Position numbers and translations under genes: made by a program. A stretch of 64,000 nucleotides of DNA from Candidatus Kerfeldbacteria bacterium. Its GTDB lineage: Bacteria > Patescibacteriota > Patescibacteriia > UBA9570 > XYC2-FULL-38-9. The stretch is taken from the NCBI GenBank assembly GCA_043813585.1, contig JBDRKW010000005.1, forward strand, positions 3,409 through 67,408, written 5' to 3'. The notes beneath the pieces are model-generated. The model made no database searches. It was not told the origin of the DNA and saw only the letters and a program-made list of their open reading frames with translations. Each line of letters starts with the position of its first letter. Position 1 is the first letter of the stretch. Shown here piece by piece: positions 6,379-27,003 of the stretch.

Positions 6379-7448
6379 GAGCCCAGGACAGAGTCAAATA
6401 ACAAAAGCGTCTTGCGTGCCGTTTCGTGCCAGGAGAACTTCTTTGCCTGCTCAACCGACTTCCGCTGCATCTCGCTGCGGATTTCCGTGTTGTTAAAGAG
6501 AAGGTTCATGCGCTCGCGGATCGAGTCCACTTCGTACGGGTCAAACAGCACGCCGGCTTCGCCAACCACTTCCGGCAGCGACGAGTTCTGCGAAACGGCA
6601 ACAGGCGCGCCGCACTTCATCGCTTCCAGCGCGGGAAGGCCGAACCCCTCGTAGATCGACGGCATCACAAAGAACAGGCAGGCGTTGTACAGCGCGAGCA
6701 GCTGCTCGGACGAAACATAGTCCAGGCAGATCACGGTGTTCTGCAAATGGTATTTGCGGATTTTCTCGTACACGCTGTCGTAGTTCCATCCTTTCTTACC
6801 GACCAGGACGAGCTTCGCGTCGCTGCGGTCCGCATAGACGAACGCCTCCAGCAGGCGTCCGAAATTCTTGCGCGGCTCCAGCGTGCCGACGCTCAAGACA
6901 AACGGCGCTTCAACTTCCGCATCGCGTAACTGCTGTTCAATCCACTGTATGTCGCGGACGATATGGAAATCTTCAGAAGCGGCCGGGTAGATAACCTCTG
7001 TTTTGGCTTTATCGATACCCAGGTGAGTGACGATATCATCGCGCGTGTGTTCGGAGATGCACGCCAGCCTGGCCGCGCGCTTCATCGAGTTGGGAAGGAT
7101 ATTCGACCAATACCGCCGCGCCGGCCCGGAAAAATGGTCGGCATACAGCACGCCGAAAATATCATGCGCCGTCATCACAACCGGTTTGCGGAACCGGGGC
7201 GCGGAAAACGCCGGCACGAACAGTGCGTCCACGCGCTTCATGCGCGCGGCAAGCGGCAGGCCGACCTGGTCCCACAAAATCCGCTTTGGCGTATTCAGGT
7301 CTTTTTTAATGAAGTTGATCTCCTCAAACGTATAATCGCGCGACTGTTTCTTCATCTCGGACACGACATGGTCAACGTAAAAACCAAGACCGGTTTTCTG
7401 GCCGACAGCCGCAGCCATGTCAACACCAATGCGCGCATTAGGCATCAT
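6375..7448 (-). CDS. Glycosyltransferase family 4 (GT1 superfamily)
   Basis: EGFGLPALEAMKCGAPVAVS is the E-x7-E GT4 signature region. 357 aa. Confidence 0.7.
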   Translation of the reverse strand: MMPNARIGVDMAAAVGQKTGLGFYVDHVVSEMKKQSRDYTFEEINFIKKDLNTPKRILWDQVGLPLAARMKRVDALFVPAFSAPRFRKPVVMTAHDIFGVLYADHFSGPARRYWSNILPNSMKRAARLACISEHTRDDIVTHLGIDKAKTEVIYPAASEDFHIVRDIQWIEQQLRDAEVEAPFVLSVGTLEPRKNFGRLLEAFVYADRSDAKLVLVGKKGWNYDSVYEKIRKYHLQNTVICLDYVSSEQLLALYNACLFFVMPSIYEGFGLPALEAMKCGAPVAVSQNSSLPEVVGEAGVLFDPYEVDSIRERMNLLFNNTEIRSEMQRKSVEQAKKFSWHETARKTLLLFDSVLGS

Positions 7449-8934
7449 TTTTTTTGAGGCTGGTTAGGCTCCTCACATCTTTAATCGATAAGCCGCGGGA
7501 GAGAAACAGCAGTAAGACGTACACAAGGCCGCCGGCCGGTACGGCAATAGCAAGCGTATAGACCGCAGCCCACGTCGGATTGGCAAAAGAAAAGAGGATA
7601 TCCCGGCAGACCGGCGCCAGGTAGGCAAGCAGCAGGAACATGATTGCGGAAGAAAGCACCGCTTTCAGGAGCCGGTATAAGCTCAAGTGGACGCGCGATG
7701 TGTAGAGCACAATCCCGAGCGCTATCAGCAGGATTGCTATTTCAGAGTAGACCGTCACCCACGCCGCGCCGTAAATGGAATACCGCGGTATGAAAATGAA
7801 ATAGCCGACAAGAGATGTTACGGCCGCAAACGCATAACCAAAGATCATCGTGCGCTGCTTATCAAGCGCCACAACCAGGTAGGTGAAGAGCGTGCCCACA
7901 AAAATGGCGGCGGCCGCAACGATAAGGATGCGCAGGATCGGCACGGAATTGCCGAACTCGTTGCCGGCAATAACCTGGATAATATCCGGCGCAAGCACCA
8001 GCGTTCCCGCTATCATGGGAATAGCAATAAACGAAAGCGCATCAAACGACTTTTGCAGCATCCGCCTGAACCGTTCCGTGTCCGCGGTTTTCCATGCGTT
8101 GGTAATGACCGGCAGTACCAGTCCCGCAAACATCGCGGGGAACGTGATCATGACTTCCAATATCTTATACGGCGCACCGTACCAGCCAACCACCTGCTCG
8201 CTTTCAAAAAAGGTCAATATCACCGTGTCACCCTTGAAGTACATCAGCCCGAAGAAGATCGACAGCGCGATCGGCCATGCTTCCTTTATAATCTCTTTGG
8301 TCAGCGCCCAGTCCAGCGTGAACCGCAGCTTGATGTATTTGCGCGATGCCAAAAAGTTCACTAAAAAGTTCGTACCGCTCGAGACCACCCGCGTGGCCAT
8401 CACCCATATCAGGTCCAGCCCGGCCCAGATGACGTTGAGCGTGGCAAACAGTAATACCGCTTTGCCCGCGAGTTCCGCAAGCGCGATCCAGTCCGTGCGC
8501 AGGAACTTCTGGAAAATGCCGGACAGCAGCTGGTTCAGCGAAACAAAGAGGAAGAAAAAGGTCGTCAGCGCGATACTGGTGATAATTTCCGGCGTATACA
8601 GCCCGTTCCAGAAACTGATGATCCATGCGGCCAGCGGGGCAAGCGCCAGCACGCCAATACCGGAGATGACGCGCAGGGTGAAGATATTGCTGGCTGTTTT
8701 CGTGCTGTTGTCGTCGAGCACCGCCAGCTTCTTGATCATAATGATGTACAGCCCGAAATCCATCAGGATCCCGAAGACCTGCAGGAACGCGACAATGGTC
8801 GTGTATTTGCCGAACCCGGCATCGCCGAGGTAGCGGAGCACGAACCCGGCCGCAATCAAAGAAAGGACGGTGCCGATCAGCTTGCCGCCCACTTGTATTG
8901 CCGTGTTTTGTGCTATTTTTCGTGCAACAGACAT
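7438..8934 (-). CDS. Polysaccharide biosynthesis flippase (Wzx/MOP superfamily)
   Basis: MSVARKIAQNTAIQVGGKLIGTVLSLIAAGFVLRYLG... is a typical Wzx N-terminus with 12+ TM segments. Start re-set to the ATG at 8934 (the ORF track extends to 9066 across the promoter). Confidence 0.65.
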   Translation of the reverse strand: MSVARKIAQNTAIQVGGKLIGTVLSLIAAGFVLRYLGDAGFGKYTTIVAFLQVFGILMDFGLYIIMIKKLAVLDDNSTKTASNIFTLRVISGIGVLALAPLAAWIISFWNGLYTPEIITSIALTTFFFLFVSLNQLLSGIFQKFLRTDWIALAELAGKAVLLFATLNVIWAGLDLIWVMATRVVSSGTNFLVNFLASRKYIKLRFTLDWALTKEIIKEAWPIALSIFFGLMYFKGDTVILTFFESEQVVGWYGAPYKILEVMITFPAMFAGLVLPVITNAWKTADTERFRRMLQKSFDALSFIAIPMIAGTLVLAPDIIQVIAGNEFGNSVPILRILIVAAAAIFVGTLFTYLVVALDKQRTMIFGYAFAAVTSLVGYFIFIPRYSIYGAAWVTVYSEIAILLIALGIVLYTSRVHLSLYRLLKAVLSSAIMFLLLAYLAPVCRDILFSFANPTWAAVYTLAIAVPAGGLVYVLLLFLSRGLSIKDVRSLTSLKKNDA

Positions 8935-8950
8935 AGTAAAAATCGGCTGG

Positions 8951-8979
8951 ATAATACCATTTACGGCACGTCGAGTCAA
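8951..8979 (-). promoter_or_regulatory. Sigma70-type promoter of the Wzx-GT4-Wzy-Wzy operon (TTGACT-17-TATTAT, read on the minus strand)
   Basis: -35 complement at 8974-8979 and -10 complement at 8951-8956, with a 17-nt spacer. The TSS would leave only about a 10-nt leader. A divergent plus-strand TTGACA lies at 8990-8995. Confidence 0.5.
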
Positions 8980-9065
8980 CCGAAACACCTTGACATCAGG
9001 GCTGATTTTTATTACACAGAGTGCGCAATATCGGCAAACCTCAATATAGGAAAGGGAGGTGTACA

Positions 9066-9878
9066 TTGGAACCGAATATCAGGAACGAAGGACCGTTCGT
9101 CGCTCTTCATGCGCCCAGCGGCTTCATCGACGGGGACCCGAACGCGCTCGCCCAGGCGGCGATCGACCTGTGGTCGTACCGCGGGGAGAGCGAGCACATC
9201 CGCAACCCGGCGCCGCAGCTGCCCGTGCCGCCCGAGAGCGGCGGACCGGACACGATCCAGCAGTGGATCGACCGGTGCCGCACTCTGTACGCGGGTTGGA
9301 TCGAGAACTGGATCATGGGCAAGGGCAGCGCTGCGGAGTCCATCCGGATGCGGGTGAGTGAGCAGCACAACGCCCTGGTGTTGGAGCGCGGACCGTTCGG
9401 CCAGGCAGTGAACCAGCAGATGCTCGCGGACCAGGCGTACGTCGAGTGCGTGGTCTACGTCAAGGTGGTGATCTGGCCGTGGCGGGTGATGGTGCACTGG
9501 AACACCGGCACCGGGTTCCAGGAGCCGGCGGTCCTGCCTGTGGCGCAGAAGCTCGGCCCGCACTGGCGCAGGATCGAGAAGTGGTCGGACCCGGCCGTGC
9601 TCGCCACCAAGACGGTCTTCATCCGCTGCCAGGCCGACCAGTCCATGTCGCCGACGTGGGACAAGGAGACGGGGCGTGCCGTCTGGCGGGTGTGCCCTGG
9701 TCCCGACCAGATCGTCTGGGACATCGTCTGGGACGCGCGCGTCGGAGGCATTGCGCTTCTCAACAACGGCTGGCTCGCAGTCACGGTTCCCCAGTTCATA
9801 CTGGGCGAGCTGACCTACGTCATCCTGGTGGACGGGACGGTCGAGGTGGACGCTTCCCCGTTCATCCAGGTCATCTGA
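9066..9878 (+). CDS. Hypothetical protein, markedly GC/GC3-rich (candidate horizontally acquired gene A)
   Basis: GGAGG RBS at 9055-9059, then a TTG start at 9066 in frame with ORF 9021. The protein-like composition is in this frame only; other frames give R/P/L/H-rich junk typical of GC-rich DNA. No recognisable domain. Confidence 0.45.
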   Translation: MEPNIRNEGPFVALHAPSGFIDGDPNALAQAAIDLWSYRGESEHIRNPAPQLPVPPESGGPDTIQQWIDRCRTLYAGWIENWIMGKGSAAESIRMRVSEQHNALVLERGPFGQAVNQQMLADQAYVECVVYVKVVIWPWRVMVHWNTGTGFQEPAVLPVAQKLGPHWRRIEKWSDPAVLATKTVFIRCQADQSMSPTWDKETGRAVWRVCPGPDQIVWDIVWDARVGGIALLNNGWLAVTVPQFILGELTYVILVDGTVEVDASPFIQVI

Positions 9879-17687: not shown

Positions 17688-17759
17688 GCCCGCATCGTCT
17701 AATGGTTAGGACATCAGGTTTTCATCCTGGCAATCGGGGTTCGATTCCCCGTGCGGGTG
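17688..17759 (+). tRNA. tRNA-Glu (anticodon UUC); CCA not encoded
   Basis: Hand-folded cloverleaf: acceptor GCCCGCA/TGCGGGT, D-stem GTCT/GGAC, anticodon stem TCAGG/CCTGG with loop TTTTCAT, T-arm CGGGG-TTCGATT-CCCCG. Confidence 0.85.
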
Positions 17760-17800
17760 CTAAAGAAGAAACGTCTCCCATTTGGGAGGCGTTTTTCTTT
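17742..17800 (+). repeat. Direct repeat copy 1: tRNA-Glu 3' end (cgattccccgtgcgggtgc) plus terminator hairpin
   Basis: The 59 bp are identical to 22977-23035. Confidence 0.75.
17771..17800 (+). terminator. Intrinsic terminator after tRNA-Glu (acgtctccc-attt-gggaggcgt, then T5cttt)
   Basis: A 9-bp stem followed by a T-run. The same hairpin recurs at 23001-23035, and a variant at 24382-24412. Confidence 0.6.
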
Positions 17801-17891
17801 ATTATTCCTGCAACGGGGAAGCGAAGGGCAGCAGTGAGGCAAAACGCGTCAGCGTTGCAGCCGAACGCCGCTTGGGTGCCGGCGGCACGCA

Positions 17892-17926
17892 AGCGCTGCC
17901 CCGGACCCGATTCCCCGTGCGGGTGC
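17892..17926 (+). repeat. Direct repeat copy 2: agcgctgccccggacccgattccccgtgcgggtgc
   Basis: Shares a 23-nt core with tRNA-Glu 3'-end-derived copies 3 and 4, and a 35-nt block with copy 3. Confidence 0.75.
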
Positions 17927-18086
17927 CACCATAGAGCACTCCCAAGTTATCACCGGTAATCAGCGCCTATTATATTTTCGATAGGTCGGGATTTATTGCC
18001 TACGGGTTGCCCATATTGGGAGGACAAAAAAACGGCACTGCCCTGCTATACTATAGATAGAGGAGGCAAACAACTTAATCGAAAAA

Positions 18087-18287
18087 ATGACAAAACCATC
18101 AATTGTGAAAAAACATCAAGCGCAGCTCCTTCTCCGTGCCGTGCACGAGATCATGGAGAAATACGCCGGCCCAGCTGCATTCCACGACAAGATATTTTGG
18201 AAAATTCATGCTGCTTTATCCCGACATGAAATGACGATGAAAGAGGCTGAAGAATACGTTTCGGCACTGTCCTCTTCGGCAGAGTGA
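18087..18287 (+). CDS. Small hypothetical protein (66 aa)
   Basis: An ORF only. It is the first gene inside island module 2. A weak RBS is located too far upstream. Confidence 0.25.
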   Translation: MTKPSIVKKHQAQLLLRAVHEIMEKYAGPAAFHDKIFWKIHAALSRHEMTMKEAEEYVSALSSSAE

Positions 18288-18469
18288 CCGTGCAGAATTT
18301 TAGGGATTAGCGCATCGCGCCACTGTATGTTATTGCTAGAATCCTAGCCCAGTCAACAACGGATGAGAGCTCCCTGCCGCTGATCTCACTGAAGAAACCG
18401 AGCGCCTGTGCTTCACTATCAAGATTCCGATATTCTGGGTACAATTCTTTACTAATGAAGTCGAGCAAA

Positions 18470-19996
18470 TCAATCACGCGGGCGTTCCAGCACAAATATA
18501 ATGAAAAGAATGATAAACCCTATCCCTAAGGGATGACTTAAGTATGGAGTAGTAACGTGGACGAATAGAAGACACAGCAGTCCGGTCATGAAACTTAATG
18601 CAAGTACTTTGCGGCCGGTAGTCTGTGCACTGCGGACAACCCTTGCCCCGTGCCAGAACAGCACAACAAACAACACAAGGTAGGCGAGCAACCCAAGCAC
18701 GCCAAGTTCATACAGTAGATCCAAATACCCCCACTCAAATGCAAAAGTCGTGTATTGGTCCGTCCCCATCATGTCGATAGCGCGAGGATCGTCAGTGGTA
18801 TAGGTGAGCGTTGCGCCAAACCCGGAACCGGTATACAGATGCTCATTCACCACGTCCCACAACGGGGCGAGTATGTTCATGCGCGTACTGATAGCCGGTT
18901 CTTCTGCTGTATATGAGGCGCGTTCGCAGACAATCTCCGCAAAAAAGAACCCTTTCCATTGTTCGCCAAGCAGCGGCACGTTCGTAAGCAGGAACAGAAC
19001 AATAAGCGACGCAGCACCGGTTGCAACCGTTAGCACCGCAGCGTGACCAATGTCTTTCCATCGCCATAATTTCGTGCTGACGAATGCGATTGCCATTGCA
19101 ACCATGCTGACTACAAGCGCCAGCCAGAACGAACGCGACCAGCTTGTAATGATAATTGTCAACAGAAGCGCGGAAAACGCGCCGTACACAAACACCTGCT
19201 TTGTCCGTCTTTCTTGCCATGTGGCTACGCAAAATGCGAACGCCACAAAGAAAAACAGCAGGTGAAATATGTGCGACTGAAAGAAAATGCGGTAAAACTG
19301 CTCATGCGTCGGGGTGATTTCGCCCACGCCGGTAACGCGTATCCATCGGTACACTGTGCCATTGAACGCGGTGATGGAATGCGCAAACGTAAATAGCAAC
19401 AACAATGTTGTTACAGACAGCGCAATCATCGCACCGGCCGCCACCTGCAGCAGCCGTTTCAACTGATCTTTTGAAACAATACTTTGGGCAGCCGGTAGAA
19501 TTAATCCCAGAAAGAGGTAGCCGTTCATATCCAGAAAGACGGTGTATAGGTCGTTGCCATGCAGAACGCCGGAAACAGTTCCGAACGCAATGCAACATGT
19601 AAACAAAAGAATCGCTTCCCATACCGGCAGTTGAAAAAAACACACCTGGCGCATGCGAATTGCATGCATGCAGAACGCCAGCATAACCGCAGAGAAAATC
19701 GCGTGACGAACCGAAACCGCAGTGCCTGCAATGTCGATCGCAAACAGATAACCTTTGCTCCCGACCAGGAGCTCGGCAAACGCAATGTATACGCCATACT
19801 CCAGGCGCCATAAAGCAAGCGCAAACGTTGCCAGAGCAATAACCGCAAACGCAACCGTGCCGACAGCGGGATAGACAAAGACGGCAAAGGAAAGGAATTC
19901 AATGCATGCGACCGCAATAAGCGTGACGACCGTCACTTTGCCGAAAAAAAGCAGCCCCTCCCGGCCAGCCGGCTGTTGTGTTATCAGCTTGGGCAT
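18470..19996 (-). CDS. O-antigen ligase family (Wzy_C) membrane protein, third paralog
   Basis: RMNILAPLWDVVNEHLYTGSGFGAT and FAFEWGYLDLLYELGVLG match Wzy_C motifs. Start set to MPKLITQQ at 19996, where the ATG overlaps the upstream stop. Confidence 0.55.
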   Translation of the reverse strand: MPKLITQQPAGREGLLFFGKVTVVTLIAVACIEFLSFAVFVYPAVGTVAFAVIALATFALALWRLEYGVYIAFAELLVGSKGYLFAIDIAGTAVSVRHAIFSAVMLAFCMHAIRMRQVCFFQLPVWEAILLFTCCIAFGTVSGVLHGNDLYTVFLDMNGYLFLGLILPAAQSIVSKDQLKRLLQVAAGAMIALSVTTLLLLFTFAHSITAFNGTVYRWIRVTGVGEITPTHEQFYRIFFQSHIFHLLFFFVAFAFCVATWQERRTKQVFVYGAFSALLLTIIITSWSRSFWLALVVSMVAMAIAFVSTKLWRWKDIGHAAVLTVATGAASLIVLFLLTNVPLLGEQWKGFFFAEIVCERASYTAEEPAISTRMNILAPLWDVVNEHLYTGSGFGATLTYTTDDPRAIDMMGTDQYTTFAFEWGYLDLLYELGVLGLLAYLVLFVVLFWHGARVVRSAQTTGRKVLALSFMTGLLCLLFVHVTTPYLSHPLGIGFIILFIIFVLERPRD

Positions 19997-19997
19997 G

Positions 19998-20882
19998 TTA
20001 CCAGTGGGTAATGTCCTTATTACAGGTATCGTTTGGAATTTCGGTCCAGTCGATCGGGTCATCGCCGCAAATCTCGCGGCACATCTTCAGGTTCATTTTC
20101 CCACGGCGCAGGTCATGGCGCGTTTGCACAAATTCCGGATCCCACCAAATCTCGGCCAACGATTGTTCCGCAACATTCCCGAACGGGTGCCGCACAAAAA
20201 AATCATTCGTACACACGACATTGCCCGCATAATCCACCGCAATTTCATCAGAAACATAGTAGCAACACTTGAATTTATGCGCTTTGTTCACCGGCACCGT
20301 GCCGCCCCGTTCAAAAATCCCGACATTGTCGAGTAACTGCAGGGTGATATACTTCTTCGATTTATCGTCTTCCACCAGCTCCTGCACGACCTTGGGCCAG
20401 TACGCCATATGCTTAGTGATCACGAGCCCGTCCGTGCCTGCATCTATCAGGTCATGGAACAGTTCTTTCGTCAGCGCAACAGCGTTCGTGTGAATGATGA
20501 TAGAAGATTTCGGAAGTTTTTCCCGCACGTACGCCATGAGCGACGGCAGGCGTTTGTCTATCAATGGGTCGCCGTAAAAATGCGGGGAGATCCGCCCTTT
20601 ATATTCAAATGGGAATGCCACCAGGTCATCAATGATCTTTCGGAACATCTCTTCAGTCATGAAATGGTCGCCCCGGTCATAGCGCGCTACGGCACAGTAG
20701 GTGCATTTAAGGTTACAGCGCGAGTTGGTTTCAATATCGAGTGCGGTGAAAATGTCGCTCCGTCCGTAGGTGGCCAGTTTATTGAGCGAGTTGTAGTACC
20801 CGCGTAATGCCGGTTTAACAGCTTCAGGCGACAACCGACGCGCAGCACGATATACAGGATTAAGCAGATATGGTAAACGCAT
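19998..20882 (-). CDS. Radical SAM protein with SPASM/twitch-like C-terminal Cys cluster
   Basis: CNLKCTYC (CX3CX2C) near the N-terminus. C-terminal KFKCCYYVS...YAGNVVCTND...KMCREIC...C cluster. Confidence 0.7.
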   Translation of the reverse strand: MRLPYLLNPVYRAARRLSPEAVKPALRGYYNSLNKLATYGRSDIFTALDIETNSRCNLKCTYCAVARYDRGDHFMTEEMFRKIIDDLVAFPFEYKGRISPHFYGDPLIDKRLPSLMAYVREKLPKSSIIIHTNAVALTKELFHDLIDAGTDGLVITKHMAYWPKVVQELVEDDKSKKYITLQLLDNVGIFERGGTVPVNKAHKFKCCYYVSDEIAVDYAGNVVCTNDFFVRHPFGNVAEQSLAEIWWDPEFVQTRHDLRRGKMNLKMCREICGDDPIDWTEIPNDTCNKDITHW

Positions 20883-20923
20883 AAAGTTAACATATCACCC
20901 AAATGGCCTTTGTCCAAGTACTA

Positions 20924-22786
20924 TTAATTCTGTCTCGCTTCCGAATATGATTGATAAGCGGTTCGATACCAATCCCAATTATCTGGACGTTGCCACTGTA
21001 AATTTAGTTGCGAAATTTCCGCCCGGCTTAAATCAGGGCGCATAATATCAGTTATAGGCACCTCTGAAGCTTCAAGCCTTACGTTTTCATAGAAGCGCCG
21101 TTTAGCACTAATTCGGTATGAGAATGCCGCATCACTTCCTCCATTATTCGATTCAGTGACTTCAAATGATGTTATGCCACGCGTAACATAGACAGAATTT
21201 GAACCTATATCATCGTATAATGTGATCGTGACTTGTATTGGATTTTCTTGATCAATAGTTACTGTATCAAGAAAGAGTGGATCAATATTAATGTGTGCAT
21301 GACCATTTTCAAGTCGTGCTTCACCAAGGTCTTCAAACCATAGTTGTGTCGATTCAACAGCATATAATTTTGTTGGTCCTTGTGTTTGAGTATAGACAAC
21401 AGCTGGTTTTTCACCTGTAGCGCCAATATCACCATCAGCAAAAATCGCATATGCGCTTCCATTTGATGAATCCTCCCTACCGTATACACCATAAATTACA
21501 CCGGTTGTTGCTTGCGCAATTCCAGCCACTCCCGATGTGCCTGTGGCATTGGACTTCGCCTCACCATATACACCATATGTTGGACTACCTGATGTTGCAA
21601 GAGCGCTACCCCAGATACCAGAAGAGCCTTCTGCTGAAGAATATGTTTCACCCATGACACCATGACCTCTTCCAGAGAACTGGCCAGATCCATCAGGGTC
21701 GCCGATTGATCCACCCCAAACACCAGCGCCGAAAGTGTTTGCATCTTGAGTAGTTGCCCAATTAAAACCCATCACGCCGACTTGGCCATCAGTTGGATCA
21801 TCGTTAATGGCATCACCGCGCACACCCACAGGTTGTCCGAGTAGCGCCCCGGTAGCATTTGCAATGCCCCATATTCCGAATGGATTTGCTGAACCGCTGT
21901 TTGCAATACCCCTGATCGCAGTTTCATCACTGGGAGTAGAATTTTTTATTACGTATAATTTAGAATTTTTACATTGCCATTTTGGCGGAATGGATTCATC
22001 CTCACAATCAATGATTTCATCCTCATTAATAAGTACTGCACCACTATCTGTAATACGCATACGCTCATTATTTCCATCTGTATTGAAAATAATATTATCG
22101 GAGGACGTGGACTGTAATGTGAGGTCACCAGAGTTCGGTCCGTAAAGAATATCTTCAATCTTTAGATCACCAGCAACATGCAATAATTGGGCAGGACTAG
22201 TGGTGCCGATGCCTACCTTTCCATCTGACGCAAGCCGCATGCGCTCACTGTTTCCTGCGATAAGATACATATCGTCACCAGATGCACCGAGTGAAACATA
22301 GCCGGAATCAGTTGTGCTGTTGTCTATAAACGTAATACCAGCTAAAGCGTCTTCACTATGCAAACGAAGTCCGATATTCGTAGTACCACTATTTATGTGC
22401 AGCATCGATGCCGGGCTTGTTGTTCCGATTCCGACGTTTCCGGTGGAGGCAATACGTATTCGTTCCGCGTTTCCCGCTTTAAGCTGCATATCATTACCAA
22501 TTGCGCCGAGCACTACATAGCTATCTGACGTTGTTGAGTTGTCCTGAAAGGACATGTATGACATTGAATCCGTGCTTTGCAAGCGCATGCCAATATTGGT
22601 TCCACCACTGTCAATGTCCAGTTTTTTCGCGGGACTACTATTGCCAATTCCAACATTTCCAGAAACCGCGCTATACATATCAGATCCAGAAATCGTCCAG
22701 TCGCTGTCTGCCGCAACATTCGTTGCAGAAGCGATAAATAAAATCATAGCACAGAAAGTTGTTATGAAAGCGCGCGACATAGGCAT
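20924..22786 (-). CDS. Secreted tail-fibre-like repeat protein (repeated ERMRI...GNVGIGTTSPA modules)
   Basis: Signal peptide. At least 4 repeats of ...GNVGIGTTSPAxxLhV... interspersed with ERMRI/ERIRI, as seen in tail-fibre-domain proteins. Confidence 0.5.
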   Translation of the reverse strand: MPMSRAFITTFCAMILFIASATNVAADSDWTISGSDMYSAVSGNVGIGNSSPAKKLDIDSGGTNIGMRLQSTDSMSYMSFQDNSTTSDSYVVLGAIGNDMQLKAGNAERIRIASTGNVGIGTTSPASMLHINSGTTNIGLRLHSEDALAGITFIDNSTTDSGYVSLGASGDDMYLIAGNSERMRLASDGKVGIGTTSPAQLLHVAGDLKIEDILYGPNSGDLTLQSTSSDNIIFNTDGNNERMRITDSGAVLINEDEIIDCEDESIPPKWQCKNSKLYVIKNSTPSDETAIRGIANSGSANPFGIWGIANATGALLGQPVGVRGDAINDDPTDGQVGVMGFNWATTQDANTFGAGVWGGSIGDPDGSGQFSGRGHGVMGETYSSAEGSSGIWGSALATSGSPTYGVYGEAKSNATGTSGVAGIAQATTGVIYGVYGREDSSNGSAYAIFADGDIGATGEKPAVVYTQTQGPTKLYAVESTQLWFEDLGEARLENGHAHINIDPLFLDTVTIDQENPIQVTITLYDDIGSNSVYVTRGITSFEVTESNNGGSDAAFSYRISAKRRFYENVRLEASEVPITDIMRPDLSRAEISQLNLQWQRPDNWDWYRTAYQSYSEARQN

Positions 22787-22816
22787 ATAATTAATTGATT
22801 ATATGATCGTAATTCC

Positions 22817-22845
22817 ATTATAGGGGGGGGGACAGCGATAAGTAA
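22817..22845 (-). promoter_or_regulatory. Promoter of the tail-fibre-like gene: TTACTT-17-TATAAT with a C9 tract filling the spacer
   Basis: -10 complement at 22817-22822 and -35 complement at 22840-22845. The spacer (22823-22839) consists of G9 (22823-22831) plus acagcgat. Confidence 0.5.
22823..22831. repeat. Homopolymeric G9/C9 tract
   Basis: This is the longest G/C homopolymer seen in the window. It lies in the promoter spacer. Confidence 0.9.
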
Positions 22846-22958
22846 AGAATTTCAGGGCTGTAAGGAGGAGCCGCATTAATATTAATACTTAAACTGCTGG
22901 TTATTATGATTCGTACCCCATGCATTTTGGAAACGCACTGTTGTTGACACAACAGGAA

Positions 22959-23035
22959 AGCGCTGCCCCGGACCCGATTCCCCGTGCGGGTGCTAAAGAA
23001 GAAACGTCTCCCATTTGGGAGGCGTTTTTCTTTTT
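22959..23035 (+). repeat. Direct repeat copy 3: extended core plus identical terminator hairpin
   Basis: agcgctgccccggacccgattccccgtgcgggtgc followed by taaagaagaaacgtctcccatttgggaggcgtttttcttt. Confidence 0.75.
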
Positions 23036-23104
23036 CACATTTTATGCTGTAATATTATGAATCATCACTCGTATACAAAGCATATAATTAAAGAGCATAC
23101 CATC

Positions 23105-24361
23105 ATGAAAAATGTAATCATTGGCATTGCGATTGCGGCTGCGGTTGCGGGAATTGCCCTTGCCGCCTATTTTATTATTCCGGCTGTATCAGAGAACAAG
23201 CAAGTGCAGGCCGAGGCAGATGGCGTAACGGCATCCGACGAGAACAACGAAGCGACGGAAGAAGGAACGCAAGCAACGGAGGAACAGGAGGCGACGGCCA
23301 TAACAGACGTATCTCCCTACGCGGTTGTGAGCACGGAAAAAATAATGGATTTAAATGGCAGCAATAATGAATGGCTGCCCAGTCGCGTGAACGGTTGGCT
23401 GGAAAAAGGAGCGAGCTTTGAATTCGCTATTCCATTTGAAGGGTGTGAGGCATTCTGCGGGCCTGACGTTACGTATTCCTACGACATCGCAACAGGTGAA
23501 ACAGAAAAAACCTTAAACCCGCTAATGGAAGAAGGCTGGCGGCTCTCTCCGGATGAACGTCGTGCAATCCGAATTCGCAGAGTTGAAGACCATGATGACG
23601 AATCAGGCGACGGGGGAACGATTGAAATGATGGACATTCAATCAGGCAATACATATGTCATTGCTAAAGAGACATTCCTCACCGGAGCCGGCGGCACCTG
23701 GGTATCCGAAAAATATACCTATCCGCGCTGGTCGCCGGACAGCAAATGGATTGTGATGTACGACAAGAGCCAGTGGGATGAAAACGGGCCGATGGTCGTA
23801 CTGTTCCCTTCAGACGCGGCAGACCTCTCCGGTTTGGCTGAACTGGGGCAATCAATATTTATTGAGACCGAGCGTGCCCCGTACGAGCAGTACTTCATCT
23901 GGTCGCCGGACAGCACCTACTTCATTGTAAATGACAATACGGATGTATTCTCGGCAGCGGAAGGGAAGCGCATCTATGAATCCAACCGCGATGAACGTGT
24001 ATTCGCCTGGTCTCCAAAAAGCGACAAGGTACTCATCGCAACGGTCTCCGATGATGAGGACACGCGCGGCCTTTCTTCGCTCTCTATAATGAACCCGGAC
24101 GGAACCGACAGGGTATTGATATTCAAGGATGTGCTCGTTGATAGCCTCTATGATATTTTTGCCTCCTGGTCCGAAGATGGAACACAGGTATTGGTTTCAA
24201 TGAACGACCAACTCGTGATCTATGACCTGGAGAGCAAGATGAGCGGTTTGGTTGCGGCGCAGGAAGGCGGGTTCAGGAATATCGCCTGGAACAAAGACGG
24301 CAGGCAGGTACTGTTTGACCGGGATAACGCTGCATGGCTCCTGGAGTACACGCGGGAATAG
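23105..24361 (+). CDS. Membrane-anchored PD40/TolB-like beta-propeller repeat protein
   Basis: N-terminal TM segment. Recurrent WSPDSKWIV, WSPDSTYFIV, FAWSPKSDKVLI, ASWSEDGTQVLV and IAWNKDGRQVLF strands. Start set to the ATG at 23105. Confidence 0.5.
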   Translation: MKNVIIGIAIAAAVAGIALAAYFIIPAVSENKQVQAEADGVTASDENNEATEEGTQATEEQEATAITDVSPYAVVSTEKIMDLNGSNNEWLPSRVNGWLEKGASFEFAIPFEGCEAFCGPDVTYSYDIATGETEKTLNPLMEEGWRLSPDERRAIRIRRVEDHDDESGDGGTIEMMDIQSGNTYVIAKETFLTGAGGTWVSEKYTYPRWSPDSKWIVMYDKSQWDENGPMVVLFPSDAADLSGLAELGQSIFIETERAPYEQYFIWSPDSTYFIVNDNTDVFSAAEGKRIYESNRDERVFAWSPKSDKVLIATVSDDEDTRGLSSLSIMNPDGTDRVLIFKDVLVDSLYDIFASWSEDGTQVLVSMNDQLVIYDLESKMSGLVAAQEGGFRNIAWNKDGRQVLFDRDNAAWLLEYTRE

Positions 24362-24379
24362 AACATCAGCTGTGACAAT

Positions 24380-24449
24380 AAACGCCTCCCTTCCCGGGAG
24401 GTGTTTTCTTTACTATTCTTGCCTCAGACCCGATTCCCCGTGCGGGTGC
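24380..24449 (+). repeat. Direct repeat copy 4: related terminator hairpin (aaacgcctccc-ttcc-cgggagg) followed by core gacccgattccccgtgcgggtgc
   Basis: The 23-nt core is identical to copies 2 and 3. The module order is inverted (hairpin before core). Confidence 0.7.
24382..24412 (+). terminator. Intrinsic terminator (cgcctccc-ttcc-cgggaggtg, then ttttcttt)
   Basis: A hairpin plus T-run immediately after the PD40 gene. It is homologous to the tRNA-Glu terminator. Confidence 0.55.
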
Positions 24450-24771
24450 ACTAACAAGTATTGACAAATCCGGAATAAATTCGTAGGGTGCAAAGTCCGT
24501 CAAGAAGGCGGAGAGAAGCCTGTATATATGGACTATAGGCTCTTCTTCGTCTCATCCAGAAGAGGCCACTCCCAGAGCGGAACAAATGCAGCCCTGCCGA
24601 ATTCGCGGTAAACACATCTCCCCAGGAGGTGTGGGCTGTGGGATTGCACCCGGATGAAAGCGCCTCAGGCGCTGGGCGTCGCATCGTGCTGTCGGACCTG
24701 CAGCACAATGATGGCTCTCCTCAGGAGAGTTCAGACGAATCCAAAAGAGGGTCACAAGGGAGGATGACACA

Positions 24772-25566
24772 ATGTCGTCCAAGAACGAGAACGGATGGAT
24801 GGATGACCTGAAGGAGCTGCTCGTGGAATCGGATCGGGCGCTCCGGTACTTCCTCGTGCTGTTCAATGCAGCGTGCAGCCGGTCGGACCTGCGCAGGATG
24901 TGCGGGGACGACAAGGTGGTTCGCCCGAACTGCCGCCTGTTCAAGCCCGACCAGATCGAGCTCGAGAAGATCTGGATGCGCTCGTACACCGAGCAGGGCG
25001 TGAATCCCCCGACCGGCGGCAAGCGCCATCCGGATGCGGTGGTCCGCCTGATGCTCGACGAGGTCGAACCTCCGCATGGGCTCTCGGGCTACTATGCGCT
25101 CGCGATCATGCGCGCGCTGGAAGCCCGGCCGGAGCCGAACACTGAGCACGACATCTTCCACGTCACACCCGAGCGGTTGGGGGAACTCAACTGCGGTGGG
25201 CACTTTCTCTGCGCGACTCTCGAGGGCCTGGACGCGGACTTCCAGATGAAGTGCACGCTGATCAGCCGTGAAGACCGGCGGTTCCTCGTGGAGATCGAGA
25301 TCTACCAGTGGGACCTCACCCAGCAGGTCGCGACAGCACTGCGGGTCTCGGGCTGGACGCTCGATGACGCGCGTGTGTGCGGCCGCGGCAAGAAGTTCAC
25401 GTTCTGGTGGGAGGTCACTGCGCCGCAGCTGCTCGAGCACATCGAGGAGATCGACGGTGCCCTCCACGTCACGTCCGACGTGTACTACACGTCGCTGTTC
25501 ATGCTGATGCGGGCGAACGGCATTCCGGTCACCGGCGTCACCCCGAGCGAGGACTGGGTCATCTAG
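24772..25566 (+). CDS. Hypothetical protein, GC/GC3-rich (candidate acquired gene B)
   Basis: AAGGGAGG RBS 7 nt upstream of the ATG. Protein-like only in this frame. No recognisable domain. Confidence 0.45.
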   Translation: MSSKNENGWMDDLKELLVESDRALRYFLVLFNAACSRSDLRRMCGDDKVVRPNCRLFKPDQIELEKIWMRSYTEQGVNPPTGGKRHPDAVVRLMLDEVEPPHGLSGYYALAIMRALEARPEPNTEHDIFHVTPERLGELNCGGHFLCATLEGLDADFQMKCTLISREDRRFLVEIEIYQWDLTQQVATALRVSGWTLDDARVCGRGKKFTFWWEVTAPQLLEHIEEIDGALHVTSDVYYTSLFMLMRANGIPVTGVTPSEDWVI

Positions 25567-25639
25567 AAGCGTTCAACCACGCTCACCTTTCATAGCCGAT
25601 TCATTTCGGCGGCAGGTATGAAAGGCCGCAACACATCAA

Positions 25640-25668
25640 GAACCATGGGAACACCTGCCGTTCCCTTC
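25640..25668 (+). terminator. Intrinsic terminator (gggaac-acctgcc-gttccc, then cttcT9)
   Basis: A 6-bp stem plus a long T-run after gene B. Confidence 0.55.
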
Positions 25669-25673
25669 TTTTT

Positions 25674-26030
25674 TTATATCTCAATTTCCTTCCAGACGAG
25701 ATCCCTGGACTTGAAATACTTTTTTGTAAATTCTGCGGCCCGTTCAGCAGAAAACGGTTTGCAGGTATACGCATCCACGGTAAACAACGGAGGCGTTGTA
25801 TTGTTATAGGTATAGAAGTGCGCACCGGACGTGATCCAGTGGATCCATGCCCCGTGCCCGACATCTTCCGCCTGATACACAAACGGTTCCTGCAACGCAC
25901 GCATGTTCAGCTCTTCAGACAGCGCAGACAGGTACGCGGCAATCTGATCCGGCGTGATCGGTTTATCGGTCGTGCCTTCAATCACCACGCGCTGCCGAAT
26001 GATATCTGGTGCCAATTTTTTCCATTCCAT
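25674..26030 (-). CDS. S-adenosylmethionine decarboxylase-like (SpeH-fold) small protein; the canonical ESH processing site is not conserved
   Basis: GAWIHWITSGAHFYTY...FTVDAYTCKPF aligns to [20 protein letters not shown]...AIDLFTCG of class 1 AdoMetDC. 118 aa. Confidence 0.35.
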   Translation of the reverse strand: MEWKKLAPDIIRQRVVIEGTTDKPITPDQIAAYLSALSEELNMRALQEPFVYQAEDVGHGAWIHWITSGAHFYTYNNTTPPLFTVDAYTCKPFSAERAAEFTKKYFKSRDLVWKEIEI

Positions 26031-26080
26031 ATATTCGCATTACTTGTTAACGCAGAAGCATAGAAGAGGAAACAGGGGGA

Positions 26081-26998
26081 ATGCAATTTTTTTCACGAAT
26101 ATCACACATTAGTAAACAGAATGTTTACTTTTTAGGCATATTGTACTATGCTGGTGCCATGTTTTTAAGCGACGGAAAAACAATCGAGAACATCATCATC
26201 TGGCAGCTCAAATCCGGCCCGCAGAGCACGGTTGGTTTGATTGCGGCTGTGCAGAAAGAGCGCCGCGGAACCACGAAGCAGGGCGTGTACCGCGTTCTTC
26301 GCGAACTCAAGAAGCAGGAGGCGGTGGTCATCCATAAAAAAGAGGTCTCACTCAACATCCGCTGGCTGAACAAGTTGTATGACTTCACGTCGCTCGCCCA
26401 GCACTTTTATTATGAGAAAAGTATCGGCACCGGGCATTTCGCAAACCTGCAGGAAGGTGAGAAGATCAAATACACCTTCAACAACCTGTCCCTCACTGAC
26501 GCGTTCTGGAACCATGCACTGTACATTCTCCATCAGATTGTGCCGGACGCGGAGCCGTGGTACGCATACGACCCGCACGTATGGTTCTATATCGCCCGGC
26601 TTGAGGACGAAACAGCGCTCATGAAACGCATGTCCGCCCGCAGGCAGTACCTGATCACCTCCGGCCATAACGACCCGATGGACAAGGTTGTCTCGCAATA
26701 CATCGACGGCACAACCGGCCAATACCACATGTTGAAAAAGCCGCTCTTTGACGACGAGTCGTATTACTTCAATATACTTGGCGACTTCCTGATTGAGGTC
26801 TGGTTTGACAGGGAAGTGGCAAAGGCGATTACCGCGTGGTATGCATCAACGAAAAAAATGACAGATACCGCAGTTGAAGATCTACGGAAAATAATTCAGT
26901 CTGAAGGAAAAACTAAATTGGTCATTTCCTGTAACAAGAAGAAAGCCGATCGGTTGAAAAAGAGGATCTCGAGATATTTCTATATCCCGGCGGCATGA
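26081..26998 (+). CDS. Hypothetical protein (possible N-terminal winged-helix region)
   Basis: An ORF only. GTTKQGVYRVLRELKKQEAVV resembles a wHTH recognition helix. The start is uncertain (an alternative ATG lies at 26159). Confidence 0.35.
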   Translation: MQFFSRISHISKQNVYFLGILYYAGAMFLSDGKTIENIIIWQLKSGPQSTVGLIAAVQKERRGTTKQGVYRVLRELKKQEAVVIHKKEVSLNIRWLNKLYDFTSLAQHFYYEKSIGTGHFANLQEGEKIKYTFNNLSLTDAFWNHALYILHQIVPDAEPWYAYDPHVWFYIARLEDETALMKRMSARRQYLITSGHNDPMDKVVSQYIDGTTGQYHMLKKPLFDDESYYFNILGDFLIEVWFDREVAKAITAWYASTKKMTDTAVEDLRKIIQSEGKTKLVISCNKKKADRLKKRISRYFYIPAA

Positions 26999-27003
26999 AA
27001 CTA

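What the first reader, a model, noticed from the sequence alone, without database searches (positions are those of the whole stretch)
19998..22786. Radical SAM/SPASM enzyme translationally coupled to a Wzy_C-like membrane protein and next to a tail-fibre-like secreted protein
rSAM/SPASM enzymes usually mature peptides or proteins (for example anSME and RiPP maturases).
- Here the rSAM gene's stop overlaps the start of an O-antigen-ligase-family membrane protein.
- The pair sits beside a 620-aa secreted repeat protein.
- No obvious short Cys-rich precursor peptide is nearby.

This combination is not a textbook cluster. It could represent a protein/glycan modification module delivered by the island.
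Basis: inference. Interest (0 to 1): 0.55.

Follow-up and report, generated by a model that had tools for sequence, protein, structure and literature searches.

The report
BtrN-like radical SAM/Wzy_C glycan islet
A small mobile islet inserted at a tRNA gene of a Candidate Phyla Radiation bacterium carries a sugar-oxidising type of radical SAM enzyme next to a surface-glycan polymerase/ligase, and close relatives of that enzyme also sit beside tail-fibre genes in temperate phages, which suggests an undescribed way of altering cell-surface sugars.

Summary
The three genes are real, and they lie on a 5.2-kb islet bracketed by a perfect 59-nt direct repeat that contains the 3' end of tRNA-Glu.

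The "rSAM/SPASM" protein is a full-length homologue of BtrN, the Twitch-domain radical SAM dehydrogenase that oxidises an aminocyclitol alcohol.
- Profile match to BtrN in the PDB: E 3e-52. Foldseek best hit: 4m7t.
- It has one auxiliary cluster, not two. This favours a sugar-like substrate over a peptide.

The stop and start do not overlap at the supported Wzy_C start: TAA, 1 nt, then ATG at 19996.

The rSAM/Wzy_C adjacency recurs in Serratia rubidaea, an Acinetobacter seifertii prophage end and a deltaproteobacterial glycan cluster. It is absent from the closest Kerfeldbacteria orthologues. More distant relatives sit in polysaccharide clusters or are fused to GT2 or GT1 domains.

In six fetched prophage or viral loci (Klebsiella, E. 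coli, three IMG/VR contigs, one metagenome contig) the same subfamily is a lone opposite-strand gene beside the tail-fibre gene. In four of these it lies between the lysis cassette and the fibre gene.

Best reading: an accessory, mobile module that modifies a surface glycan. The chemistry and the substrate are inferred. I found no description in the papers I could search.

The parts
17688..17760 (+). tRNA-Glu (UUC). Its last 19 nt (17742-17760) form the core of the repeats.
   Evidence: ARAGORN. Rfam tRNA, 60.6 bits.
17742..17800 (+). Left copy of the perfect 59-nt direct repeat: the tRNA 3' end plus 40 nt that include a terminator hairpin. It looks like an att site.
   Evidence: the repeat finder family D2, 100% identity. 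Terminator-like hairpin at 17767-17796.
17886..17926 (+). Internal 41-nt repeat that ends in a second exact copy of the 19-nt tRNA core (17908-17926). It is 95% identical to 22953-22993.
   Evidence: the repeat finder family D1. Core pattern search. Sequence read.
17927..18469 (.). Spacer at the tRNA-proximal end of the islet. It holds only short ORFs (66 aa on +, 62 aa on -) with no family matches and no convincing precursor peptide.
   Evidence: the ORF listing with min 20 aa. No PHROG matches.
18470..19996 (-). Wzy_C-family (O-antigen ligase/polymerase family) polytopic membrane protein, 508 aa. It is the third Wzy_C paralogue in the window.
   Evidence: Pfam PF04932, E 6e-12. Identical to the NCBI protein P0044, 508 aa. 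The closest homologues (41-42% identity) lie in GT2-Wzy_C-GT2-GT2 operons.
19998..20882 (-). BtrN-family Twitch-domain radical SAM enzyme, 294 aa.
- SAM cluster ligands: C56, C60, C63.
- Auxiliary cluster ligands: C207, C224, C268, plus a displaced fourth Cys (C272, giving CX3C).
- R192 corresponds to BtrN R152.
- A conserved 42-aa N-terminal extension is absent from BtrN.
   Evidence: Pfam. Profile against the PDB: BtrN, E 3.3e-52. Single sequence: 1e-26. AF2 pLDDT 89.5. Foldseek best hit 4m7t, E 4.6e-20, TMt 0.81. Residue census over 160 family members.
20924..22786 (-). 620-aa secreted repeat protein with phage-tail-fibre-type N-terminal repeats and a C-terminal beta domain. It is the first gene of the putative operon.
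   Evidence: PHROG tail-fibre families. Thousands of partial homologues, many carrying Peptidase_S74. BFVD hits to cyanophage tail-fibre-like proteins, although the model is poor (pLDDT 58.9).
22817..22846 (-). Sigma-70-like promoter match (10 of 12) upstream of the fibre-like gene. It could serve as the operon promoter.
   Evidence: Consensus scan only. Not evidence of function.
22953..23033 (+). Right boundary of the islet: a copy of the 41-nt repeat fused to the right copy of the 59-nt repeat (22975-23033). The third copy of the tRNA core is at 22975-22993.
   Evidence: the repeat finder families D1 and D2. Sequence read. Core search.
24431..24449 (+). Fourth exact copy of the tRNA-Glu 3' core. 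A degenerate copy of the terminator module precedes it. It closes a second small segment that holds only the PD40 beta-propeller gene (23015-24361, + strand).
   Evidence: Core search. Sequence read. Pfam PD40.

Best explanation
**What it is**

The 294-aa protein is a member of the BtrN family of Twitch-domain radical SAM enzymes.
- *Shown:* it has full-length sequence and fold homology to BtrN. It keeps the SAM-cluster cysteines, the auxiliary-cluster cysteines and the BtrN Arg152 equivalent.
- *Inferred:* like BtrN, it uses the 5'-deoxyadenosyl radical to abstract a hydrogen from a carbinol carbon of a sugar or cyclitol ring. The electron passes to the auxiliary cluster, and the secondary alcohol becomes a ketone.

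**How it most likely works**

*Inferred:* the substrate is a cytoplasmic precursor of a surface glycan, either a nucleotide sugar or a polyprenyl-linked repeat unit. The Wzy_C protein encoded 1 nt downstream then polymerises or ligates the altered unit on the outer face of the membrane. Together the two genes would give the cell a variant surface glycan.

**Setting**
- *Shown:* the genes lie on a 5.2-kb islet bounded by direct repeats and integrated at tRNA-Glu.
- *Shown:* the same enzyme subfamily recurs next to Wzy_C genes in unrelated bacteria, and as a lone gene beside the tail-fibre gene of temperate phages.
- *Inferred:* the module therefore works as a mobile surface-glycan (receptor) variation device, comparable in logic to phage serotype-conversion genes.
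- The adjacent fibre-like secreted protein is probably co-transcribed. It has no demonstrated functional tie to the pair.
For: **BtrN homology**
- Profile E 3.3e-52 over BtrN residues 3-246. Single-sequence E 1e-26.
- Foldseek best hit 4m7t, E 4.6e-20, TMt 0.81. The next hit is 12 orders of magnitude weaker.
- C207, C224, C268, R192, H101, N133 and D227 are conserved, with few exceptions, across 160 family members and in BtrN.

**Link to glycans**
- Relatives at 30-40% identity sit among GT1/GT4, GT2, flippase and epimerase genes (named from their sequences by me).
- Family members are fused to GT2 (P0185) and GT1 (P0241) domains.
- A GT2 or GT1 gene lies next door in Spirosoma and in Acidobacteria.

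**Wzy_C adjacency outside the window**
- L012/L092: rSAM followed by Wzy_C, downstream of GT2 and Wzz.
- L009: S. rubidaea. L014: end of an A. seifertii prophage.
- In every close-subfamily locus outside the window where Wzy_C was detected, it is the immediate neighbour. The window itself has two further copies 13-16 kb away. A rough conditional chance estimate is about 2e-4.

**Mobility**
- The tRNA-Glu core occurs four times, and the 59-nt repeat is perfect.
- GC drops to 0.44-0.49 inside the islet, against about 0.53 around it.

**Phage position**
- In the Klebsiella prophage, E. coli KMi006, L083 and L094 the gene lies between the lysis genes and the tail fibre. In L082 and L084 it lies directly beside the tail-fibre gene.
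- Three different fibre families are involved.
Against: - No substrate, product or phenotype is known for any member of this subfamily.
- The closest Kerfeldbacteria orthologues (61-65% identity) have no Wzy_C neighbour. Three of them sit by a ribosomal-protein cluster.
- The closest relatives of this Wzy_C pair with GT2 genes, not with an rSAM.
- This window alone has three Wzy_C genes, so adjacency here has roughly a 10% chance expectation.
- The Wzy_C partners are not one clade.
- Both gammaproteobacterial partners are disrupted, one by a frameshift and one by an IS element, while the rSAM stays intact.
- Many enterobacterial and phage copies are lone genes with no glycan gene nearby.
- About 50% identity between CPR and enterobacterial copies suggests a conserved, perhaps universal, substrate rather than a strain-specific sugar.
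- The fourth auxiliary-cluster Cys is displaced in the window protein (CX3C) and is Ser in some orthologues.
- The islet carries no integrase.
Confidence: 0.5

Rival explanations
1. The rSAM is a protein or peptide maturase. It would oxidise or cross-link residues of the adjacent fibre-like secreted protein, of phage tail fibres, or of an unannotated peptide, much as anSME oxidises Ser or Cys to formylglycine.
For: - The Pfam SPASM match is above its cut-off.
- Weak NCBIfam matches to maturase families exist.
- The gene lies directly downstream of, and in the same direction as, the 620-aa fibre-like gene.
- The subfamily lies beside tail-fibre genes of three different families in phages.
- anSME and BtrN are described as sharing a dehydrogenation mechanism (title of reference 20 in PMC9012708).
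Against: - All NCBIfam maturase scores are far below their cut-offs (67 bits or less against 250-650) and cover only the radical SAM core.
- anSME ranks 33rd in the fold search, whereas BtrN ranks first.
- There is one auxiliary cluster, and no RRE or precursor peptide.
- In the phages the gene is on the strand opposite to the fibre gene.
- Most family members have no fibre neighbour.
- Full-length homologues of the 620-aa protein have no rSAM nearby.
Confidence: 0.1
2. The rSAM is a stand-alone phage-borne defence, superinfection-exclusion or nucleotide-modifying enzyme, viperin-like in logic. Its neighbours, Wzy_C included, would be incidental cargo of variable regions.
For: - It sits in a moron position, as a lone opposite-strand gene, in at least three phage types.
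- It occurs as an orphan insertion at different chromosomal sites in Serratia, Pantoea and Rouxiella.
- It is rare within a species: 1 of 5426 complete E. coli genomes.
- There are weak PADLOC pVip matches (1.7e-5 for the window protein, 7e-10 for P0030).
- Identity of about 50% across phyla fits a universal substrate.
Against: - The pVip matches cover only the generic radical SAM core (residues ~51-144).
- Viperins rank far below BtrN in the fold search.
- The GT2 and GT1 fusions and the polysaccharide-cluster contexts of the wider family point to glycans.
- Wzy_C or GT genes are the immediate neighbours in several unrelated lineages.
Confidence: 0.15
3. The adjacency has no functional meaning. 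The rSAM would be a conserved Kerfeldbacteria enzyme with an unrelated housekeeping role that happens to lie next to one of the many Wzy_C genes of this genome, and the repeats at the tRNA would reflect local rearrangement.
For: - Orthologues at 61-65% identity occur in other Kerfeldbacteria at non-glycan sites, after an AlaRS-like gene and before the infA-rpsM...rpsI block.
- The window has three Wzy_C genes.
- The nearest Wzy_C relatives pair with GT2 instead.
- The islet has no integrase.
Against: - The adjacency recurs in Proteobacteria, where only the neighbouring Wzy_C was found in 20-kb loci.
- The 1-nt spacing and shared strand suggest co-expression.
- In those other Kerfeldbacteria, the same ribosomal block is followed by a flippase and glycosyltransferases.
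- Four exact copies of the tRNA core are not explained by chance.
Confidence: 0.2

Closest known systems
BtrN (2-deoxy-scyllo-inosamine dehydrogenase, butirosin pathway, Bacillus circulans; PDB 4M7S/4M7T)
   Same: - Same overall architecture: a partial TIM-barrel radical SAM core followed by a Twitch domain.
- About 33% sequence identity over 230 residues.
- The CX3CX2C motif, auxiliary-cluster Cys169/187/232 and Arg152 are all conserved, as are the motifs GRISxHFYGEPL, HTNG/YTNG and NRGG.
   Different: - The window has no 2-deoxy-scyllo-inosose synthase. A genuine BtrN-type context is seen in Sodalis pHS1.
- A conserved 42-residue N-terminal extension is absent from BtrN.
- The fourth auxiliary Cys is shifted (CX3C).
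- The neighbours are a Wzy_C gene and a fibre-like gene on a mobile islet.
SPASM-domain peptide/protein maturases (anSME, PqqE, SuiB, CteB, sactisynthases)
   Same: They belong to the same radical SAM superfamily and share a Pfam SPASM-type C-terminal Fe-S motif. anSME performs the same formal reaction, alcohol or thiol to carbonyl.
   Different: - Those enzymes carry two auxiliary clusters, a seven-Cys motif, usually an RRE or peptide-binding element, and a nearby substrate gene.
- Here there are only four C-terminal Cys, no precursor, and far weaker sequence and fold scores than to BtrN.
Phage serotype-conversion modules: P22/epsilon34 gtrABC, epsilon15 and D3 phage-encoded O-antigen polymerases, Sf6 Oac (recalled from my own knowledge of the literature; epsilon34 paper PMC2629481 listed but not read)
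   Same: - These are accessory genes that alter the surface glycan, carried by temperate phages or islets near the tail-spike gene and the attachment site.
- Some include a phage-encoded Wzy-type polymerase.
- The layout here (fibre-like gene, modifying enzyme, Wzy_C, att at a tRNA) has the same order.
   Different: - The known modules use glucosyltransferases, acetyltransferases or polymerase inhibitors. None uses a radical SAM enzyme.
- No Gtr or Oac homologue is present.
- The host is a CPR bacterium.
- No phage structural, lysis or integrase genes accompany the islet.
Patescibacterial GT2-Wzy_C-GT2-GT2-DUF4012 polysaccharide operons
   Same: The window's Wzy_C is 41-42% identical to the Wzy_C of these operons, and the upstream gene is likewise tightly coupled to it.
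   Different: In the window the slot upstream of Wzy_C is held by the BtrN-like rSAM instead of a GT2. No glycosyltransferase follows, and the gene sits on a tRNA-bounded islet.

Membership tests
Radical SAM superfamily | CX3CX2C motif that binds the SAM-cleaving [4Fe-4S] cluster, plus a match to the core domain | tested here: met
   C56-X3-C60-X2-C63 is invariant in alignment A1. PF04055 scores 40.3 bits against a cut-off of 29.5.
BtrN / Twitch-domain radical SAM dehydrogenases | Full-length sequence and fold homology to BtrN | tested here: met
   Profile E 3.3e-52. phmmer 1e-26. Foldseek best hit 4m7t, TMt 0.81.
BtrN / Twitch-domain radical SAM dehydrogenases | A single auxiliary [4Fe-4S] cluster with four Cys ligands (BtrN C169, C187, C232, C235) | tested here: inconclusive
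   C207, C224 and C268 align with the first three ligands. The fourth is shifted by one residue in the window protein (CREIC) and is Ser in three relatives. It is Cys in 155 of the 160 family members. Metal content cannot be tested here.
BtrN / Twitch-domain radical SAM dehydrogenases | Active-site Arg (BtrN R152, recalled from the structure paper, which was not held) | tested here: met
   R192, in the NRGG/ERGG motif, aligns with BtrN R152 and is Arg in 156 of 160 members.
BtrN / Twitch-domain radical SAM dehydrogenases | 2-deoxystreptamine pathway context (DOI synthase, aminotransferase) | tested here: not met
   The window has no homologue of the Sodalis DOI synthase, and the neighbours are Wzy_C and a fibre-like protein. 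It is therefore filed as a BtrN-family member but not as a BtrN orthologue.
SPASM-domain maturases (anSME, RiPP maturases) | Seven-Cys SPASM motif binding two auxiliary clusters | tested here: not met
   Only C207, C224, C268 and C272 lie in the aligned Twitch region, and only the first three are conserved across the family. The two other C-terminal cysteines (C206, C287) are not conserved. The Pfam SPASM model also matches Twitch domains.
SPASM-domain maturases (anSME, RiPP maturases) | A cognate precursor peptide, sulfatase or RRE nearby, and an equivalog-level family score | tested here: not met
   No Cys-rich or leader-like ORF on the operon strand. The best NCBIfam score is 66.6 bits against a cut-off of 380.
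Wzy_C (O-antigen ligase / polymerase / O-oligosaccharyltransferase) family | Pfam PF04932 match above its gathering score in a polytopic membrane protein | tested here: met
   46 bits against a cut-off of 31.7, over residues 296-462. The sequence is hydrophobic throughout. Whether it acts as a ligase, polymerase or protein O-glycosylase cannot be tested with these tools.
tRNA-integrated genomic island | Direct repeats that contain the 3' end of the target tRNA and flank the inserted DNA | tested here: met
   Perfect 59-nt repeat at 17742-17800 and 22975-23033. Four exact copies of the 19-nt core against 0.02 expected.
tRNA-integrated genomic island | An integrase or recombinase carried by the element | tested here: not met
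   No integrase domain in any ORF from 17760 to 27000, by Pfam or PHROGs. The element would be non-autonomous or a remnant.
Phage tail fibre | Homology to tail-fibre modules, together with other virion genes nearby | tested here: inconclusive
   PHROG tail-fibre families match at 1e-10 to 8e-19, and BFVD hits go to cyanophage fibre-like proteins. Against membership: the N-terminus looks like a signal peptide, there is no Peptidase_S74 domain, and there are no other phage genes nearby.
Prokaryotic viperin (pVip) defence | A full-length match to the pVip models | tested here: not met
   The PADLOC pVip match is 22.5 bits and covers only residues 54-143. Viperin structures rank 27th or lower in the fold search.

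The most novel reading that the evidence does not exclude
The N-terminally extended BtrN-like subfamily may be a new class of lysogenic-conversion or surface-variation enzyme. It would be a radical SAM dehydrogenase, carried by temperate phages (next to the tail-fibre gene) and by small islets (often with a Wzy_C partner). It would oxidise a sugar in a surface-glycan precursor and so change the phage receptor or antigen. It would operate in organisms ranging from CPR bacteria to Enterobacterales and Acinetobacter.
Probability: 0.3. Interest if true: 0.8.

Novelty: new variant of a known kind. Interest (0 to 1): 0.6.

Why it matters
Radical SAM dehydrogenases of the BtrN type are known from antibiotic pathways (BtrN in butirosin; SpeY, by my recollection, in spectinomycin).

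If this subfamily modifies cell-surface glycans, two things would follow:
- Radical chemistry would join the known toolkits for serotype conversion and receptor masking.
- The roughly 900 uncharacterised BtrN-like sequence clusters (at 50% identity) would gain a functional lead.

The prophage copies in Klebsiella and E. coli make the idea testable in tractable hosts. This matters for phage host range, phage therapy and O-antigen or capsule typing.

The CPR copy suggests that the same device is used by ultra-small episymbiotic bacteria, whose surface glycans are almost unstudied.

Tried and rejected
**Searches that found nothing**
1. A jackhmmer search with the window's Wzy_C, fibre and PD40 proteins against the first 75 loci found nothing. 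Wzy_C proteins are too divergent for this. Reseeding with the Serratia and Acinetobacter copies recovered L012, L036, L092 and L119.
2. Fibre and Wzy_C relatives in IMG/VR: none.
3. The element's repeat arm plus core in IMG/VR: none. No free or phage form of the islet was found.
4. INPHARED phage genomes hold only three weak relatives of the rSAM.
5. PADLOC gave only core-level pVip matches, so a defence role was not adopted.
6. Literature searches (BtrN + polysaccharide; radical SAM + Wzy / O-antigen ligase; radical SAM + prophage + moron) found no description. The BtrN structure paper is not held.

**Ideas rejected**
- Precursor peptide: the only Cys-rich ORF (17996-18229, TTG start) is on the opposite strand and overlaps another ORF.
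- An epimerase reading was judged less likely, because no Cys other than the cluster ligands is conserved to act as a hydrogen donor. This is inference only.

**Limited or untestable**
- The AF2 model of the 620-aa protein was poor (pLDDT 58.9), so its fold matches carry little weight.
- The canonical Kerfeldbacteria site of the rSAM orthologue is not inside the window. A second copy elsewhere in this genome cannot be excluded.
- My own greedy ORF caller masked the L012 Wzy_C behind a longer antisense ORF. I corrected this with stop-to-stop ORFs.


Full report
**Source and gene layout**

The window comes from a Candidatus Kerfeldbacteria (CPR/Patescibacteria) MAG. The three proteins are 98-100% identical to NCBI entries from a single 94-kb contig.

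On the minus strand, in order of transcription, lie:
- a 620-aa gene (22786-20924);
- a 41-nt gap;
- a 294-aa gene (20882-19998);
- a Wzy_C gene that ends at 18470.

Pfam confirms Radical_SAM plus SPASM in the 294-aa protein and Wzy_C in the membrane protein, all above the curated cut-offs. The 620-aa protein has no Pfam family. It matches PHROG tail-fibre families in its N-terminal repeats and its C-terminal domain.

**The junction between rSAM and Wzy_C**

The rSAM stop is TAA at 20000-19998. An ATG follows at 19996, after a single base.
- This ATG is the NCBI start (508 aa).
- It fits where homologues begin.

The genes are therefore tightly packed and plausibly coupled, but they do not overlap.

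**What the rSAM is**

No NCBIfam equivalog comes near its cut-off. A search of 5.8 billion proteins gave 43 relatives, and I aligned 32 of them.

The profile of that alignment matches one solved protein far better than any other: BtrN, with E 3.3e-52 across almost its whole length. The next match is at 1.6e-6. The window protein on its own gives 1e-26. An AlphaFold model (pLDDT 89.5) finds BtrN first, with E 4.6e-20 and TM 0.81-0.83 on the target. Sactisynthases, EpeE, DesII, SpeY, viperins and anSME fall far behind.

[quoted passage not shown] It has a single, Cys4-ligated auxiliary cluster (PMC10337720; PMC9012708).

Residue mapping from the HMMER alignment:

| Role | BtrN | Window protein |
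|---|---|---|
| SAM cluster | C16 / C20 / C23 | C56 / C60 / C63 |
| Auxiliary cluster | C169 / C187 / C232 | C207 / C224 / C268 |
| Active-site Arg | R152 | R192 |

- These positions, plus H101, N133 and D227, are conserved with few exceptions in 160 family members drawn from all fetched loci.
- The fourth auxiliary Cys is Cys in 155 of the 160. In the window protein it is shifted by one residue (CREIC). In three Kerfeldbacteria relatives it is Ser.
- So the "SPASM" domain is a Twitch domain, and the nearest chemistry is oxidation of a ring alcohol rather than peptide maturation.
- The window holds no DOI synthase. A true aminoglycoside-type context (DOI synthase, GT, BtrN-like gene, PIG-L deacetylase) exists on a Sodalis plasmid. 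The window gene is therefore a family member but not a BtrN orthologue.
- The close subfamily also has a strongly conserved 42-residue N-terminal extension that BtrN lacks.

**Family size and general context**

An exhaustive HMMER search of 1.84 billion cluster representatives found 898 with E ≤ 1e-30.
- Some are fusions of the BtrN-like domain with GT2, GT1, DUF6625 or a methyltransferase domain.
- Scans of genome, viral and metagenome collections gave 68, 4 and 79 loci.
- Members at 30-40% identity come from Cloacimonadota, Brocadia, Nitrospirota, Myxococcota and DPANN archaea. They sit in operons whose recurrent neighbours read, from their sequences, as GT1/GT4, GT2, flippase, B12-type rSAM and epimerase genes.

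This ties the wider family to polysaccharide synthesis.

**Is the rSAM/Wzy_C pair found elsewhere?**

*Not in the nearest relatives*
- Three Kerfeldbacteria orthologues (61-65% identity) lie after an AlaRS-like gene and/or before the infA...rpsI block. In two of them a flippase and glycosyltransferases follow that block. Other orthologues are isolated.
- The nearest relatives of the Wzy_C (41-42% identity) sit in GT2-Wzy_C-GT2-GT2-DUF4012 operons. There a GT2 gene holds the slot that the rSAM holds in the window.

*Yes in the close rSAM subfamily (46-53% identity, N-terminal extension present)*
- A deltaproteobacterial MAG and a matching metagenome contig carry GT2, Wzz, rSAM and then Wzy_C, 79 nt or less downstream (L012, L092).
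- Serratia rubidaea has Wzy_C immediately upstream of the rSAM, in a two-gene islet beside dsbB (L009).
- Acinetobacter seifertii has the pair at the end of a prophage, between a GH108 endolysin and an integrase (L014).
- The two gammaproteobacterial Wzy genes are orthologous in both halves. Both are damaged, one by a frameshift and one by an IS element.

*How much weight this carries*
- Outside the window, in every close-subfamily locus with a detectable Wzy_C, that gene is the immediate neighbour.
- A rough conditional probability for this is about 2e-4.
- The window's own contribution is weak. It has two further Wzy_C genes in a native polysaccharide cluster at 3698-9066.
- Other close members have GT2 (Spirosoma), GT1 (Acidobacteria) or HldE-like neighbours.

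**The phage connection**

The subfamily gene is a lone gene on the strand opposite to its neighbours, beside the tail-fibre or tail-spike gene, in:
- a Klebsiella michiganensis prophage;
- an E. coli KMi006 prophage (the only one among 5426 complete E. coli genomes);
- three IMG/VR contigs;
- one metagenome contig.

In four of these loci it lies between the lysis cassette and the fibre gene. The fibre genes belong to three different PHROG families: 1640, 17635 and 4201.

This is the classic position of morons and conversion genes. In P22-type phages, as I recall from the literature, the O-antigen conversion genes lie between the tail-spike gene and att.

The window repeats that order: fibre-like gene, rSAM, Wzy_C, then the tRNA.

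**The islet**

The last 19 nt of tRNA-Glu (17742-17760) recur exactly at 17908, 22975 and 24431, all in direct orientation, against 0.02 matches expected.
- A perfect 59-nt repeat (tRNA end plus a terminator hairpin) at 17742-17800 and 22975-23033 brackets the spacer, Wzy_C, the rSAM and the fibre-like gene.
- A 41-nt repeat (95% identical) links 17886-17926 with 22953-22993.
- The PD40 propeller gene lies between copies three and four.
- GC falls to 0.44-0.49 inside the islet, against about 0.53 around it.
- No integrase is present, and no free form was found in IMG/VR.

I read this as one or more non-autonomous or decayed integrative elements stacked at tRNA-Glu.

**The fibre-like protein**

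Thousands of proteins share its GNVGIGTTSP-type repeats, and many end in the Peptidase_S74 chaperone domain of phage fibres. BFVD matches go to cyanophage fibre-like proteins, but my model is poor.

Its N-terminus looks like a Sec signal peptide (read from the sequence; not tested with a predictor). Its two full-length homologues lie among Sec, FG-GAP and T4SS-like genes, with no rSAM or Wzy_C nearby. It is most simply a cell-surface fibre of the CPR cell. It is possibly co-transcribed with the pair (promoter-like site at 22846-22817), with no shown functional tie.

**Mechanism and confidence**

| Claim | Confidence |
|---|---|
| BtrN-family Twitch enzyme (shown) | about 0.95 |
| Acts on a carbohydrate-like substrate rather than a peptide (inferred) | about 0.7 |
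| Dehydrogenation of a sugar alcohol in a cytoplasmic glycan precursor, with the altered unit handled by the Wzy_C protein (inferred) | about 0.5 |

An epimerase variant is less likely, because no extra conserved Cys is available to act as hydrogen donor.

The rivals are protein maturation of the fibre, a stand-alone defence or nucleotide-modifying role, and fortuitous adjacency. Each is listed with its evidence.

No paper in the searchable library describes a BtrN-like enzyme in glycan or phage contexts, or an rSAM/Wzy_C pair. One machine-learning study lists an unspecified "Radical SAM/SPASM" gene cluster among its predictors of phage-host interaction (PMC12579225). I could not link that gene to this family.

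**Verdict**

The maturase framing is wrong, while the idea of an island-borne glycan module is reasonable and now has comparative support.

It is a new variant of known kinds: a BtrN-type enzyme placed in a serotype-conversion-like mobile context. It has a testable and fairly surprising implication for phage-host surface biology.

Noticed in passing
window 22994-24449: A second mini-segment lies between the third and fourth copies of the tRNA-Glu 3' core. It holds only a 448-aa PD40/beta-propeller protein with an N-terminal membrane anchor. A degenerate copy of the terminator module sits just before the fourth core. This suggests stacked insertions at the same tRNA.
   Followed up: partly
window 24721-25566: Two long ORFs overlap on opposite strands (264 aa on +, 248 aa on -) in a locally GC-rich stretch (0.59). 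Neither has a Pfam or PHROG match. Which of them, if either, is a gene is unclear.
   Followed up: partly
window 1627-9066: A native polysaccharide cluster lies on the minus strand: a Polysacc_synt flippase, a GT4 glycosyltransferase, two tandem Wzy_C paralogues (4945-6378 and 3698-4948) and an Amidase_2-domain protein. The islet's Wzy_C is therefore an extra, third copy.
   Followed up: partly
Alignment A1, column of window residue 271 (P0009, P0011, P0013, P0015, P0017): Several Kerfeldbacteria orthologues read CRES where BtrN and almost all relatives have CxxC. They lack the fourth auxiliary-cluster cysteine. The window protein, P0002, P0004 and P0005 have CX3C instead. This could mean a three-Cys cluster with an open iron site, as in MoaA.
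   Followed up: partly
P0018, P0024, P0031: JGI names three relatives '8-amino-3,8-dideoxy-alpha-D-manno-octulosonate transaminase'. These are radical SAM proteins with no aminotransferase domain, so the name looks like an annotation-transfer error.
   Followed up: no
L086 (Sodalis praecaptivus plasmid pHS1, 388367-403083): A cluster resembling a 2-deoxystreptamine aminoglycoside pathway sits on a megaplasmid of an insect-symbiont relative. It contains a 2-deoxy-scyllo-inosose synthase, a glycosyltransferase, a BtrN-like rSAM, a PIG-L deacetylase and ABC transporters.
   Followed up: no
L009 8536-9808 and L014 11247-13521: The Wzy genes next to the rSAM in Serratia rubidaea and Acinetobacter seifertii are both disrupted, one by a frameshift and one by an IS element with a DDE transposase. 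The rSAM genes themselves remain intact.
   Followed up: yes
window 25674-26030 (-): A small (118 aa) protein resembling S-adenosylmethionine decarboxylase (PF02675, 29 bits) lies just beyond the repeat array, between unannotated ORFs.
   Followed up: no
window 55001-56000: A sharp GC peak (0.677, against about 0.53) coincides with several long overlapping ORFs on both strands (54531-56056).
   Followed up: no
H6-H14, Brachyspira hyodysenteriae ~32-36 kb plasmids: Distant relatives (23-26% identity), annotated as radical SAM/SPASM or SPASM domain proteins, are found on nine listed ~32-36 kb plasmids of this species.
   Followed up: no
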